64,000 nt of DNA from a virus, in IMG/VR virus record IMGVR_UViG_3300045131_002298, positions 38,742 to 102,741 of that record. One strand, given 5' to 3'. The position numbers and the translations under genes were made by a program. The stretch's first letter is position 1; the number at the start of each line of letters is the position of its first letter. This document shows, in pieces, positions 61,670-64,000 of this stretch. Under the pieces are notes generated by a model. The model had not been told where the DNA came from, made no database searches, and saw only the letters and a list, made by a program, of their open reading frames with translations.

Positions 61670-62280
61670 AGCGACTGAGTGACTTCTCAGCGACCTTTTG
61701 GTCGACTTCTCAGTGAACATATCAGTCAAAGGTTGATCGACCGAATCGACTGGTCGACTTCTCAGCGACCTTTAAAGCGATCAAATTTTTTGAGAAAAAA
61801 GCGACCTTTTCGTATGTTTTAAAGTCGCTTTGTCGCTCCATACTGGTCGATCACTTCGACTTGATCAAGTCGACCTTCTCAGTATATTCATTATAAGTGA
61901 TCAAGTCGGTCGACTTCTCAGTATATTCATTACTAATCACTCAAAAGGACTCAGTCGATTGATCACAAATGATCACTTTTGATCGCTTCAAATGATACAA
62001 GTGTATCAAATTTGATACAGTCGCTTTGTTACTTGTAAGATATATCTTACACTTTTTCAAAAAGTCCTTTAAAATTAAATAGATAAAAAACTGACGTTTT
62101 CGTATGAAAAAATAAAAAGATATTTAAAACAATTACTTAGTAACCATAAAGGTTAACAAGTTAATAAATAATTACATGCTATAAATTGACTTTTCGCTCC
62201 ATACTGGTCAATCGCTTTGACTCAGTGATCGCAGTCCTTTTAGGAGTCGACTAAAAATAAAAGGATCGACTAGAAAATAA
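61670..62280. repeat. non-coding mosaic of GTCGAC/CTTCTCAG/GCGACCTT/TCGCTCCATACTGGTC repeats
   Basis: Multiple direct copies visible. Confidence 0.8.
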
Positions 62281-62284
62281 TCAC

Positions 62285-62312
62285 TTGACTTTGACCAAAA
62301 AATCACTATAAT
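62285..62312 (+). promoter_or_regulatory. sigma70-type promoter
   Basis: TTGACT-N16-TATAAT; AAGAGGT RBS downstream. Confidence 0.65.
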
Positions 62313-62357
62313 TTGTGATAGGGTGGATAAATTAAATAAAATCAAGAGGTTAAGAAA

Positions 62358-63887
62358 ATGAAAAGATTTGCAAGTGGTTTAGAAATTTTTGAAGGTCGAC
62401 TTGATCGACCTTATAATCGCAATTCAAAAGGTTATTTTAATCACTCAGCGACCGTTTACGGTCGACATACTGCGACTTGTTTCCAAGATCTTGATCTTGA
62501 ATTTACAAGTCCTTCAGCGATATTTCGGTCGATTGACCTTCAAGCGTTTTCTTATAAGTCAACATTGGGTCAAGCGACTTTTAAAGACTCTGAGTCCTTC
62601 ATAAAAGTCGATCGTGATTATGCAGTCAAGAGTCCTTTTGTATCTTTTGATAAAAGGTCGACTGAGTCGAGACTGCGAAAAGTCGACTTTATATCATGGT
62701 TGAATGATCAATATTCGACTATGCGACAAATGATCACTCCAAAAAAAGAGCGACCAAAAGTCGTATATAGTCGACCAGTCGATTTAGGACTTGATCACTC
62801 TAAATGTTACGAAAACACAAGTCGATCATTTAGTCGTATTATGAAGTCGATTGAGCGATTAAAAGATAGAAGCGACTGCGATCGACTGAGACTCCAAAAG
62901 GCATATTTGACTAACCTTGTGACTCAGTATGTCGATTATTTTGATCGACTGAGAAGCGACCGACTAGAGAAGCGACTTTGTTCACTCTATGGTAATAATC
63001 ATCAAGAAATTTTCAAATCTGAAATCCAAAAATATGAGAAGCGAAAAAAACAAGGACTTGTAAAGGTCGCTGAAAAAATTCAAAAGGACAAAGGCATTGA
63101 TACTCACATACACTATCGACAAAGTGTATTAAAAGGACAGGTCAAGTTTGAAGGTTACAGTCCAATAAGGTCGCTCCAGGTGATCAATTTGTCGCAGTTT
63201 AGTAACCTTCCACTAAAACAATTCGATCGAGAAACAAACCAGTTCATTGACTTCAAAGAAATAGTTATGTCGCTCCACACTACACTTATTAAAACATTGG
63301 TCTCGACATATTACCTTCCAGTGAAGGGATTTACTGAGATTGAGTCCTTCTGCGACCTCGAAACAAAAGCGACTATTTGCGACAAATTCGAATACTCTGA
63401 ATTGCGACTCCAAAAGATCGAAGTCTTTACTATTGGCGAATTTTCAATAATTAGGACTTACGGTCGAGAAGTGGGTCAAATGTTTTATAATGAAAAGGTT
63501 GAAGTCGCTCCATACTGCGACCTTCAAAGTCGAAAAGTGATCACTGGTCGAGACTCTTTTGTCGCTCCAGTATGTATGATCACTCAACCAAAAGAGAAAA
63601 AAGAGAAGTCGGTCGAAGAAAAAAGAGAAGTCGCTTTGAGAATGATCAAAGCAAAAAAGGACAAAGCGATTGATCGAATTACAAAGTCGATCAAAGTCAA
63701 AGCGACAACAAAGCGACCGAAAATGAAATCGGGAGCGAATCGACCAAAAGATCAATCAAAAGAGATAATTTTCGGGACTCTAAAAGCAATCCCAAGTTAT
63801 CCAAAAGAGTCGATCGACTTCATAACTAATTCAACTATCACTCTTGAAAAGTCGCTGAGTGATTCGATCGCTCCAGTCGCTCCATAA
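62358..63887 (+). CDS. 509-aa basic hypothetical protein encoded in motif-saturated DNA
   Basis: Long ORF with promoter, RBS and terminator; no recognised domain. Confidence 0.7.
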   Translation: MKRFASGLEIFEGRLDRPYNRNSKGYFNHSATVYGRHTATCFQDLDLEFTSPSAIFRSIDLQAFSYKSTLGQATFKDSESFIKVDRDYAVKSPFVSFDKRSTESRLRKVDFISWLNDQYSTMRQMITPKKERPKVVYSRPVDLGLDHSKCYENTSRSFSRIMKSIERLKDRSDCDRLRLQKAYLTNLVTQYVDYFDRLRSDRLEKRLCSLYGNNHQEIFKSEIQKYEKRKKQGLVKVAEKIQKDKGIDTHIHYRQSVLKGQVKFEGYSPIRSLQVINLSQFSNLPLKQFDRETNQFIDFKEIVMSLHTTLIKTLVSTYYLPVKGFTEIESFCDLETKATICDKFEYSELRLQKIEVFTIGEFSIIRTYGREVGQMFYNEKVEVAPYCDLQSRKVITGRDSFVAPVCMITQPKEKKEKSVEEKREVALRMIKAKKDKAIDRITKSIKVKATTKRPKMKSGANRPKDQSKEIIFGTLKAIPSYPKESIDFITNSTITLEKSLSDSIAPVAP

Positions 63888-63910
63888 CATTCAATCACTC
63901 TTTTGACTTT

Positions 63911-63941
63911 AAAAGGTCGCTTTTCAGCGACCTTTTTTTTT
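63911..63941 (+). terminator. Rho-independent terminator
   Basis: AAAAGGTCGC-TTTTCA-GCGACCTTTT plus T-run. Confidence 0.8.
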
Positions 63942-63970
63942 CGATCTGCGACCTTCTCAGCGACCTTCAG

Positions 63971-64000
63971 AGTCCTTCAGTCCTTCAGTCCTTCAGTCCT
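63971..64000 (+). repeat. 8-bp tandem repeat (AGTCCTTC)n running off the window
   Basis: agtccttc agtccttc agtccttc agtcct. Confidence 0.85.

What the first reader, a model, noticed from the sequence alone, without database searches (positions are those of the whole stretch)
61670..64000. GTCG/CGAC-saturated DNA: a gene, its terminator and its flanks all written in the same few words
Seen: from about 61.7 kb many 60-nt lines contain 2-4 GTCG/CGAC words, along with abundant TGATC/GATCA, TCGA, GACTC/GAGTC and AGTCC. These words are sparse in the preceding 61 kb. Words common elsewhere (AGCT, CTAG, GGCC, CCGG, GCGC) nearly vanish. The bias runs through the 509-aa ORF, which has a promoter, RBS and terminator, and shapes its codons and residues (CGA, TCG, GTC, GAC giving R/S/V/D). 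The terminator stem itself is GGTCGC/GCGACC, and the window ends in (AGTCCTTC)n. Inference: strong DNA-level selection on what may be the first-injected segment. Options are dense binding sites for a protective or pilot protein, substrates for a modification or methylation mark, decoys titrating restriction enzymes, or purging of all sites except those the host tolerates. The basic ORF product is a candidate binder. I know no described system with this signature.
Basis: partly seen in the sequence, partly recalled or inferred. Interest (0 to 1): 0.85.

Follow-up and report, generated by a model that had tools for sequence, protein, structure and literature searches.

The report
Phage gene block written in few words
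The last 2.3 kb of this lake-water phage contig, including a conserved orphan gene and its signals, really is built from a handful of short double-strand DNA words (GTCGAC-, GATC- and TCGA-type) that are the rarest words elsewhere in the phage; protein needs, codon usage and site avoidance cannot explain this, and no described system matches it.

Summary

- **Enrichment.** From 61660 to the window end, GTCG/CGAC is 25x enriched, TCGA 15x and GATC 5x. The fuller motif RGTCGM is about 100x enriched: 71 of its 102 copies in the 102.7-kb record lie here.
- **Depletion.** Ten of the twelve G/C-containing 4-bp palindromes are nearly absent.
- **DNA level.** The words fall in all three codon frames, equally on both strands, and at the same density in coding and non-coding DNA.
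- **Controls.** With the protein fixed, the phage's codon usage predicts 5 GTCG/CGAC, synonymous permutation 28 and avoidance-only recoding 17-24. Observed is 59, against a possible maximum of 101.
- **Not an artefact.** Contigs from three lake samples bridge the boundary at phage depth.
- **Beyond the contig.** The contig ends in a roughly 66-nt tandem array, and the vocabulary continues past it.
- **The gene.** It encodes 509 aa, pI 9.6, is real (two 77% homologues, three distant ones) and has no recognisable family.

Best reading (about 0.4): positive selection for a dense array of reserved (hemi)palindromic words, read on duplex DNA by a methylase or binding protein. The loss of restriction targets is largely a by-product and possibly a benefit. 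"First-injected" and "terminal repeat" are not supported. This scan noted restriction-purged, GATC-rich early blocks in other uncultured phages, but not this degree of saturation.

The parts
61000..61023 (+). Intrinsic terminator closing the upstream + strand gene array (last gene 60429-60908)
   Evidence: 10-pair stem followed by a T tract; ORF list
61024..61180 (+). 53% GC spacer in ordinary phage DNA that carries the first copy of the polar motif TCGCTCCATACTG (61130-61142)
   Evidence: (family D3). The same 13-mer recurs at 61833, 62194 and 63505, which ties the zone to the flanking phage DNA.
61181..61659 (.). AT-rich (27% GC) non-coding region with two nested long inverted repeats and its own repeat families; it contains no words of the zone
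   Evidence: (I1, I2, D17, D19). Folded as a single strand, z = -4.8 against shuffles.
61660..62357 (.). Non-coding, word-saturated block with iteron-like direct repeats (TGGTCGACTTCTCAGYGA x4, CTCAGCGACCTTT family x7, and two tandem ~38-nt units at 61863-61935). It also holds a word-poor paralogous copy at 62082-62222.
   Evidence: (D1, D2, D6-D8, D16). Non-coding parts of the zone hold 28 GTCG/CGAC in about 810 nt, the same density as the ORF.
62285..62312 (+). Near-consensus sigma-70-type promoter (TTGACT, 16-nt spacer, TATAAT) of the 509-aa gene
   Evidence: 11 of 12 matches; it is one of 17 such sites in the record
62358..63887 (+). Gene for a 509-aa basic orphan protein (P0001). It holds 59 GTCG/CGAC, 33 TCGA and 21 GATC, spread over all three frames.
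   Evidence: Homologues P0002 and P0003 are 77% identical; P0004-P0006 are distant. There is no Pfam, PHROG, NCBIfam or PDB match.
63911..63936 (+). Intrinsic terminator whose stem is built from the words (AAAAGGTCGC / GCGACCTTTT)
63941..64000 (+). First unit of a roughly 66-nt tandem repeat array that includes (AGTCCTTC)n. The array is collapsed in the assembly and caused the contig to end here.
   Evidence: a joint from 63995 back to 63941 with 11 nt between, at depth 281 vs 43 in X1, 29 vs ~5 in X3 and 14 vs ~7 in X4. A 251-nt loose end continues in the same words. See also (D10).
61833..63884 (+). Polar octamer TCGCTCCA: eight copies, all on the + strand (61833, 62194, 63171, 63270, 63505, 63562, 63868, 63877), plus one at 61130. 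It is the only strongly strand-asymmetric word of the zone.
   Evidence: 8:0; a third-order Markov model expects 1.5; none of 2000 simulations reached 8

Best explanation
The block is genuine phage DNA under positive selection, at the level of duplex DNA, for a very small set of short palindromic or half-palindromic words built on GTCGAC and GATC: RGTCGM, TCGA and YGATCR.

The RGTCGM motif alone occurs about once per 33 bp, through spacer, promoter region, coding sequence and terminator alike. These are exactly the words that are rarest in the rest of the phage, so they act as reserved words that mark this block and almost nothing else.

The most likely mechanism is that a sequence-specific factor reads them on double-stranded DNA. 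Candidates are one or more adenine methyltransferases of the Dam, TaqI or SalI site type, and/or a DNA-binding protein, with the encoded basic orphan protein as one candidate. The block would then become a densely modified or coated domain that controls what happens to it: expression, protection, or initiation of replication or packaging next to the AT-rich region and the tandem array.

The near absence of other restriction-type words is largely a consequence of locking 60% of all G/C bases into these words. It may be an added benefit.

Shown: the enrichment, its independence from protein and codon usage, its strand symmetry, its confinement to this block, and its physical linkage to the phage.
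For: - Enrichment: GTCG/CGAC 25x. RGTCGM is at 30/kb against 0.31/kb, with 71 of 102 copies in the record lying here.
- Motif shape: it is short and defined (r-a-K-CGAC-Y-t), and GATC sits in YGATCR.
- Palindromes: GTCGAC x10, TGATCA x11 and CGATCG x5, against 0.02-0.3 expected.
- DNA level: equal counts on both strands, all three frames, and the same density in coding and non-coding DNA.
- Protein and codons do not explain it: 5.1 +/- 2.2 or 28 +/- 3.5 expected vs 59 observed. This is 58% of the maximum of 101 that the protein allows.
- Avoidance alone does not explain it, even with 101 of 256 tetramers forbidden (24 +/- 4).
- Codon choice: the gene abandons the phage's preferred A/T-rich codons (AGA, TCT, GTT/GTA) for CGA, TCG and GTC, which are used at 6-7% elsewhere. 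Gly and Ala are halved.
- Reserved words: TCGA and GTCG/CGAC are the two rarest tetramers in the other 100 kb relative to base composition (O/E 0.34 and 0.37).
- Concentration: 60% of G/C bases lie in six word pairs, against 11% elsewhere.
- Rarity: the block is an extreme outlier against 983 windows of 104 unrelated viral loci.
- Linkage: it is joined to the phage at equal depth in three samples.
Against: - No reader is identified. No DNA methyltransferase was recognised in the record: a motif scan found one NPPY, in a 1542-aa protein with no family, and the only methyltransferase domain is a Methyltransf_24 fused to a glycosyltransferase.
- The orphan protein has no recognisable DNA-binding fold, and its model is unusable (pLDDT 37).
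- The sites show no regular spacing or helical phasing.
- Several word families coexist (RGTCGM, YGATCR, AGTCC, CTCAG), which fits 're-use of a few safe words' as well as one reader.
- No DNA of any homologue could be obtained, so conservation of the words at synonymous sites is untested.
- Only 2.3 kb and one gene of the zone are in hand.
Confidence: 0.4

Rival explanations
1. Vocabulary minimisation for defence evasion, with no dedicated reader. The block has to work before the phage is protected, as an early or leading module in the manner of T5 first-step-transfer DNA. Selection therefore removes every G/C-containing word that some host restriction system might read, and re-uses a few words that are safe in the host population, for example because host methylases cover them. 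Saturation is then the result of re-use, not of a need for the words.
For: - The zone offers a site to only 218 of 614 known Type II specificities. [quoted passage not shown] For sites of effective length 5 or less the figures are 91 vs a mean of 134.
- Distinct G/C hexamers in the ORF number 489, against 710 +/- 13 in synonymous permutations, and fewer than in any equal window elsewhere.
- The rest of the genome avoids only GTAC.
- The unit is autonomous and host-type, with its own promoter and terminator.
- Precedent: only sites in the first-entering DNA matter in T5/BF23 and in Autographiviridae (PMC10644984, PMC12455610).
- This scan noted restriction-purged, GATC-rich early blocks in other uncultured phages (unchecked notes).
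Against: - Avoidance-only recoding gives 17-24 GTCG/CGAC, not 59.
- The cheapest way to avoid sites is to use A/T-rich synonymous codons, which the phage prefers anyway. The gene does the opposite, raising CpG from O/E 0.66 to 1.40.
- With word-bearing codons held fixed, the remaining loss of palindromes is not significant against the ORF's own codons (4 vs 6.6 +/- 2.0, P = 0.13).
- There is no evidence that the block enters first, and its depth is not that of a terminal repeat.
Confidence: 0.25
2. A cis-acting replication, partition or packaging region of the iteron type. In this reading an AT-rich unwinding region and iteron-like repeats precede an initiator-like gene, and a second repeat array follows it, as in incC-repA-incA of the P1 plasmid replicon. 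The GATC/TGATCA clusters would gate the region by methylation, as at P1 oriR and pac. The words would be many weak sites for the encoded basic protein.
For: - The layout is: terminator, a 479-nt 27% GC region with nested inverted repeats, 700 nt of 14-30-nt direct repeats, a gene for a basic protein, a terminator, then at least six 66-nt tandem units.
- TGATCA occurs 11 times.
- All five homologues sit on very short contigs of 0.8-3.5 kb, as expected if repeats always flank this gene.
- The comparison with P1 rests on my own knowledge.
Against: - There is no similarity to any Rep, initiator, terminase small-subunit or partition family.
- There is no cluster of DnaA boxes.
- Known iterons are 17-22 bp and few in number. 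They do not fill an entire 1.5-kb coding sequence in all frames.
- The phage's ParB_N protein lies 38 kb away, next to the terminase.
Confidence: 0.15
3. Foreign insert: a mobile or horizontally acquired element that keeps the genome-wide oligonucleotide signature of its donor.
For: - The boundary at 61660 is sharp.
- Codon usage is opposite to the phage's.
- The orphan gene occurs elsewhere only on short contigs.
Against: - G+C is the same as in the phage.
- The 13-mer TCGCTCCATACTG occurs both in ordinary phage DNA (61130) and three times inside the zone.
- No integrase, transposase ends or target duplication are seen at the boundary.
- No organism or virus with such a signature was found among 983 windows of 104 viral loci.
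- No relative was found in any collection searched.
- A genome-wide density of 37 GTCG/CGAC per kb at 37% GC is not known to me.
Confidence: 0.08
4. Assembly chimera or sequencing artefact.
For: The zone lies at a contig end and next to repeats.
Against: - One contig of run X1 covers 60752-63970 at phage depth.
- Independent samples X3 and X4 cover the boundary and the zone with no mismatches.
- An RNA library from another study holds 100% identical pieces.
- The 509-codon frame is intact and is conserved in other metagenomes.
Confidence: 0.02

Closest known systems
First-step-transfer (pre-early) DNA of phage T5/BF23, and the leading region of Autographiviridae (PMC10644984, PMC12455610)
   Same: It is a delimited block of a large virulent phage that exposes far fewer restriction targets than the rest of the genome. 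It forms a host-RNAP transcription unit of its own.
   Different: - T5-type DNA is defined by its position in the terminal repeat and by two-step injection. Here the depth is single-copy and no genome end is shown.
- There is no homology to the A1, A2 or dmp genes.
- Those regions lack particular sites but are not saturated with a few words. Avoidance cannot explain the enrichment here.
Genome-wide restriction-site (palindrome) avoidance in phages (PMC6286503)
   Same: Loss of G/C-containing 4-bp palindromes through synonymous choices.
   Different: The loss is local (2.3 kb of 102.7 kb) and affects ten palindromes at once. It is coupled to 5-25x gains of two other palindromes and their extensions. 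The rest of this genome avoids only GTAC.
Over-represented methylase-site palindromes and site clusters: HIP1 (GCGATCGC) of cyanobacteria, GATC clusters at oriC, and TGATCA hexamers at P1 pac and P1 oriR (my own knowledge)
   Same: Short palindromes of methylase type are kept far above expectation and are read at the DNA level. TGATCA and CGATCG are among the enriched words.
   Different: HIP1 is genome-wide, and GCGATCGC itself is absent here. The oriC and pac clusters are 150-250 bp and non-coding. Here the array runs through a whole gene at 58% of the attainable maximum.
Iteron replicons with the initiator gene between two repeat arrays (P1 incC-repA-incA), and lambda ori inside gene O (my own knowledge)
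   Same: An AT-rich region, direct repeats, a gene for a basic protein and a downstream tandem array. Binding sites lie inside the coding sequence, as in lambda gene O.
   Different: There is no Rep-family similarity. The word is 6 bp rather than 17-22 bp, there are 71 copies rather than 4-14, and they fall in every frame and on both strands.

Membership tests
T5-type first-step-transfer / leading region | Lies at the physical end that enters first; in T5 this is inside the long terminal direct repeat | tested here: not met
   Depth is 43 against 45-46 for the neighbouring phage contigs, so there is no two-fold terminal-repeat depth. The contig end is a collapsed tandem repeat, and contigs continue beyond it. 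A position near a genome end in the missing ~17% of the genome cannot be excluded.
T5-type first-step-transfer / leading region | Lacks restriction sites that are common in the rest of the genome | tested here: met
   Sites for 218 of 614 specificities, against a minimum of 309 in 197 equal windows. Ten 4-bp palindromes have 0-2 copies.
T5-type first-step-transfer / leading region | Encodes pre-early host-takeover or anti-restriction proteins (A1, A2, dmp, or Ocr-like) | tested here: not met
   P0001 matches no Pfam, PHROG, NCBIfam or PDB entry. PADLOC was not searched. A new anti-defence protein cannot be excluded.
T5-type first-step-transfer / leading region | Transcribed first after infection | not testable with these tools
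   The only hints are a host-type promoter and five 151-165-nt pieces in one metatranscriptome. The phage also encodes its own sigma factor.
Iteron-type origin with initiator gene | Tandem or closely spaced direct repeats next to an AT-rich unwinding region | tested here: met
   Families D2 and D6-D8 (4-7 copies) at 61669-61924, a 27% GC region at 61181-61659, and a 66-nt array after the gene.
Iteron-type origin with initiator gene | Adjacent gene belongs to a Rep/initiator family | tested here: not met
   No family match; the structure model is unusable.
Iteron-type origin with initiator gene | DnaA boxes or other host-initiator sites are clustered in the region | tested here: not met
   There is a single one-mismatch box at 62322 and another at 63797, with no cluster.
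Methylase-site array (Dam/SeqA-type, P1 pac-type) | Local excess of GATC/TGATCA | tested here: met
   GATC is at 13.6/kb against 2.8/kb; TGATCA occurs 11 times against 0.3 expected.
Methylase-site array (Dam/SeqA-type, P1 pac-type) | The sites are methylated, and a cognate methylase is present in phage or host | not testable with these tools
   No DNA methylase was recognised in the 102.7-kb record. The host is unknown and no modification data are available.

The most novel reading that the evidence does not exclude
A reserved-word DNA domain. The phage keeps the words GTCGAC/RGTCGM, TCGA and GATC out of almost all of its genome and packs them into one block, including the inside of a protein-coding gene at more than half the density that the protein allows. 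A dedicated reader, possibly the orphan basic protein encoded there or a methylase, can then recognise, coat or mark that DNA and no other. The purpose might be to shield or regulate the module that must act first, or to gate replication or packaging. This would be a sequence-addressed chromatin-like domain in a phage genome, a kind of organisation not described so far.
Probability: 0.3. Interest if true: 0.85.

Novelty: new variant of a known kind. Interest (0 to 1): 0.72.

Why it matters
DNA-level word selection in phages is known almost only as avoidance of restriction sites, or as sparse signals such as Chi, pac or iterons. Here a whole transcription unit, including 1.5 kb of conserved coding sequence, is driven to 58% of the theoretical maximum for one word family, at the cost of codon usage and amino-acid composition.

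That implies a strong and so far unidentified reader or constraint acting on duplex DNA in a freshwater phage. If it is pure re-use of safe words, it shows how far restriction pressure can compress the vocabulary of a gene.

Either way the block gives a clean, testable system: one motif, one gene and one boundary. It also warns that such blocks break assemblies, since every known copy of this gene lies at a contig end or on a contig of 3.5 kb or less.

Tried and rejected
- **Relatives with DNA.** I searched IMG/VR with the protein, with P0004, with the neighbouring primase (one 24% relative only), and with three exact DNA motifs. The single hits were chance matches. Two looked dense in GTCG/CGAC but were GACGAC-repeat DNA of unrelated viruses.
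- **Other collections.** JGI metagenome contigs gave nothing with the protein alignment or with the 24-nt continuation read off the loose end. GTDB genomes, INPHARED phages and PLSDB plasmids also gave nothing.
- The test 'do homologues carry the same or different words' remains undone.
- **Protein function.** AlphaFold2 with six sequences gave pLDDT 37. ESM Atlas had no usable hit. A PDB profile search found nothing, as did Pfam, NCBIfam and PHROGs. PADLOC was not searched.
- **RNA families.** Rfam found nothing above chance.
- **Spacing.** No periodicity or phasing of the motif was found.
- **tRNAs.** The phage has only tRNA-Asp(GTC), so it carries no tRNA set for the odd codons.
- **Host.** TnpB homologues are about 54% identical in unrelated MAGs and are uninformative. 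Terminase and ATPase relatives are 29-39% identical in phages of many hosts.
- **RNA-level explanations** (endoribonuclease avoidance, structured RNA) are rejected because all words are strand-symmetric.
- **Terminal-repeat reading** is rejected on depth.
- **RNA library.** Parts of the stretch without cover in run X10 (58000-61873) are not evidence of silence.
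Full report
**Where the window lies.** The window is the last 64 kb of a 102,741-bp linear IMG/VR virus record estimated to be 83% complete. 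The DNA is found in lake-water metagenomes of many studies. The record encodes a tail sheath, a DnaB-like helicase, a primase and a large terminase. It also encodes ThyX, RtcB, an RNA ligase, a sigma-70-family factor and a ParB_N protein next to the terminase. Its nearest cultured relatives are only 29-39% identical at the protein level. Seventeen near-consensus -35/-10 promoters are spread over the record, so the host uses a classical sigma-70.

**The observation.** It holds, and is stronger than described.
- GTCG/CGAC rises from 1.44 to 37.0 per kb at about 61660 (25x). TCGA rises 15x, GCGA/TCGC 8x, AGTC/GACT 6.6x and GATC 4.8x.
- Nothing similar exists anywhere else in the 102.7 kb, including the other contig end.
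- The fuller motif is RGTCGM (= KCGACY), with weak flanks r-a-K-CGAC-Y-t. Of its 102 copies in the record, 71 lie in the last 2.35 kb, which is 30/kb against 0.31/kb.
- Of the twelve 4-bp palindromes that contain G or C, ten are nearly gone. AGCT, GGCC, CCGG, GCGC, CGCG and GTAC have 0 copies, ACGT has 1, and CATG, CTAG and TGCA have 2 each. GATC has 32 copies and TCGA 45. All-A/T palindromes are unchanged.
- At six bases, GTCGAC (10), TGATCA (11) and CGATCG (5) stand against expectations of 0.02-0.3.
- Sixty percent of all G/C bases of the zone lie inside six reverse-complement tetramer pairs, against 11% elsewhere.

**It is a property of duplex DNA, not of the protein or the RNA.**
- The words fall about equally in the three codon frames and on both strands, for enriched and depleted words alike.
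- They have the same density in the ~810 nt of non-coding DNA as in the ORF.
- With the amino-acid sequence fixed and codons drawn from the phage's own usage, 5.1 +/- 2.2 GTCG/CGAC are expected. With the ORF's own codons permuted among synonymous positions, 28.1 +/- 3.5 are expected, with a maximum of 43 in 1000 trials. Observed is 59.
- Dynamic programming gives 101 as the largest number this protein could carry, so the gene stands at 58% of the ceiling.
- Codon choice is inverted. CGA supplies 23 of 37 Arg codons (6% elsewhere), TCG 15 of 48 Ser (7%) and GTC 16 of 29 Val (7%). Gly and Ala are halved.

**It is not an artefact or a chimera.**
- In run X1 a single 3,219-nt contig covers 60752-63970 without a mismatch, at depth 43. 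The adjacent phage contigs are at 45-46.
- In the independent samples X3 and X4, contigs cover the boundary (X4 61108-61808; X3 61288-61656 and 61672-62009) and the zone, again without mismatches.
- A metatranscriptome of another study holds five identical 151-165-nt pieces between 61874 and 63641.
- The 13-mer TCGCTCCATACTG occurs once in the ordinary DNA at 61130 and three times inside the zone.
- The equal depth also rules out a collapsed terminal repeat.

**The contig end.** The end is not a genome end. A joint from 63995 back to 63941 with 11 nt between, at 2-6.5 times the phage depth in three runs, shows a tandem array of roughly 66-nt units. A 251-nt loose end continues in the same vocabulary. 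The zone is therefore longer than the 2.3 kb in hand.

**Anatomy**. In order along the + strand:
- a terminator at 61000-61023;
- a 157-nt 53% GC spacer;
- a 479-nt 27% GC region with nested inverted repeats (single-strand fold z = -4.8);
- 700 nt of non-coding, word-saturated DNA full of 14-30-nt direct repeats;
- a near-consensus promoter at 62285-62312;
- the 509-codon gene;
- a terminator whose stem is made of the words;
- the tandem array.

A second, word-poor copy of part of the leader (62082-62222) differs from the word-rich copy (61792-61861) by base changes inside the words: three words are each broken by a single base and one by three. For example GGTCGATC becomes GGTCAATC and TTCGACT becomes TTTGACT.

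On top of the symmetric vocabulary lies one polar word, TCGCTCCA. It has eight copies on the + strand and none on the - strand, where a third-order Markov model of the zone expects 1.5.

**The gene.** It is real.
- It has two 77%-identical homologues and three distant ones that share the C-terminal half.
- The product is basic (pI 9.6, +28 net charge).
- It matches nothing in Pfam, PHROGs, NCBIfam or the PDB, and its AlphaFold model is unusable (pLDDT 37).
- All five homologues sit on contigs of 0.8-3.5 kb. This suggests that repeats flank the gene wherever it occurs.

**What drives the pattern: avoidance or attraction?** I tested the two against each other.
- *Avoidance alone fails.* I recoded the protein with uniform synonymous choice while forbidding every tetramer absent from the zone, or up to 101 of 256 depleted tetramers. 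This gives 17-24 GTCG/CGAC, 13-16 TCGA and 12-14 GATC, against 59, 33 and 21 observed. The cheapest way to avoid G/C words would be the A/T-rich codons that the phage prefers anyway, yet the gene does the opposite and raises CpG from O/E 0.66 to 1.40.
- *Saturation explains most of the avoidance.* If the codons that touch the words are held fixed, the remaining loss of palindromes is not significant against the ORF's own free codons (4 vs 6.6 +/- 2.0, P = 0.13). It is still low against the phage's codon usage (10.9 +/- 2.9, P = 0.005).
- *Conclusion.* Saturation with the words is the primary signal, and much of the purge follows from it.

**The consequence for restriction targets.** The consequence is nevertheless large. 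Using the REBASE-derived list in Biopython, the zone offers a site to 218 of 614 Type II specificities. [quoted passage not shown] The ORF has 489 distinct G/C hexamers, against 710 +/- 13 in synonymous permutations (z = -17), fewer than any window of equal length elsewhere in the genome. Among 983 windows from 104 unrelated viral loci of 30-45% GC, none comes near: 550 distinct hexamers against a minimum of 718, and a top-six word share of 0.30 against a maximum of 0.21.

**The reserved-word twist.** The words that saturate the zone are the rarest in the other 100 kb relative to base composition. TCGA ranks first (O/E 0.34) and GTCG/CGAC second (0.37). This reflects the general scarcity of CGA/TCG there rather than specific avoidance, since the Markov O/E is about 1. 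By the Markov measure the rest of the genome specifically avoids only GTAC (0.49). A factor that reads these words would therefore see this block and almost nothing else in the phage.

**Interpretation.** I favour, at about 0.4, positive selection for a dense array of reserved (hemi)palindromic words read on duplex DNA. The palindromic form and the site types point to methyltransferases and/or a dimeric binding protein: GATC is Dam-like, TCGA TaqI-like, GTCGAC SalI-like and TGATCA BclI-like, all adenine-methylation sites to my knowledge. The encoded basic orphan protein is a candidate but nothing more.

The main rival, at 0.25, is re-use of a few safe words in a module that must work before the phage is protected. 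This is the logic shown experimentally for T5/BF23 first-step-transfer DNA and for the leading region of Autographiviridae (PMC10644984, PMC12455610). This scan has noted restriction-purged, GATC-rich early blocks in other uncultured phages (unchecked notes), so the restriction-poor aspect is not unique to this phage. The degree of word saturation is.

A third reading, at 0.15, takes the layout at face value as an origin-, partition- or packaging-type cis region with its own protein. The layout is an AT-rich region, direct repeats, a basic-protein gene and a tandem array. Against this reading, there is no Rep-like similarity and no DnaA-box cluster. Foreign origin (0.08) and artefact (0.02) are unlikely for the reasons given above.

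**What could not be done.** No relative with DNA was found in IMG/VR, JGI metagenome contigs, GTDB genomes, INPHARED or PLSDB. The key comparative test is therefore open: whether homologous genes carry the same words, other words or none. Genome ends, the full extent of the zone, DNA modification, timing of expression and the host are all unknown.

**Verdict.** This is a real, statistically extreme feature that no control accounts for. It belongs to the known kind 'DNA-level word selection in phage genomes', but in a form I could not find described: a local, saturating array of reserved words that runs through a conserved gene.

Noticed in passing
window 61130-63884 (+ strand): The polar octamer TCGCTCCA occurs nine times on the + strand and never on the - strand, in two reading frames and in non-coding DNA. 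Its 3' ends point towards the contig end, which is the orientation a Chi-like signal would need to stop an exonuclease entering from that side. A promoter element for the phage's own sigma factor is another possibility.
   Followed up: partly
window 51495-52475 (- strand): A TnpB-type gene (OrfB_IS605 plus Cas12f1-like TNB domain, E 2e-29 and 4e-23) sits inside the phage. Its homologues are about 54% identical in MAGs of Acidobacteriota and methanogens.
   Followed up: partly
window 40061-40825 (+ strand): The phage encodes a sigma-70-family factor (regions 2 and 4), so later genes probably use phage-specific promoters.
   Followed up: no
window 30037-39254: An RNA-repair and nucleotide cluster: ThyX (30037-30741), a PHROG 'RNA-binding protein' of 510 aa (31558-33090), RtcB (36156-37331), an RNA ligase with OB fold (38235-39254), and the only tRNA, tRNA-Asp(GTC), at about 34630-34707.
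   Followed up: no
window 58477-59114 and 60433-60781: In other lake samples these two stretches occur as alternative alleles that differ by 8-9% (59 and 28 differences). The word-saturated zone shows no difference in the pieces laid.
   Followed up: no
window 62082-62222 versus 61792-61861: A paralogous, word-poor copy of part of the leader, in which three of the GTCG/TCGA-type words are each broken by a single base and one by three. It could be a record of how the words are gained or lost (families D1 and D16).
   Followed up: partly
whole record: GTAC is the one tetramer specifically avoided genome-wide (Markov O/E 0.49), which hints at an RsaI-type restriction system in the host.
   Followed up: no
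window 41807-43729 (+ strand): A 640-aa fusion of a family-2 glycosyltransferase with a Methyltransf_24 domain. It is probably a sugar- or cell-surface-modifying enzyme, and there is no evidence that it acts on DNA.
   Followed up: no
window 60903-61000: Two tandem 49-nt units, 76% alike and each ending in AAAAATTGAGTATA(T/A)TTTTAGAAC, lie just before the terminator that precedes the zone (D9).
   Followed up: no
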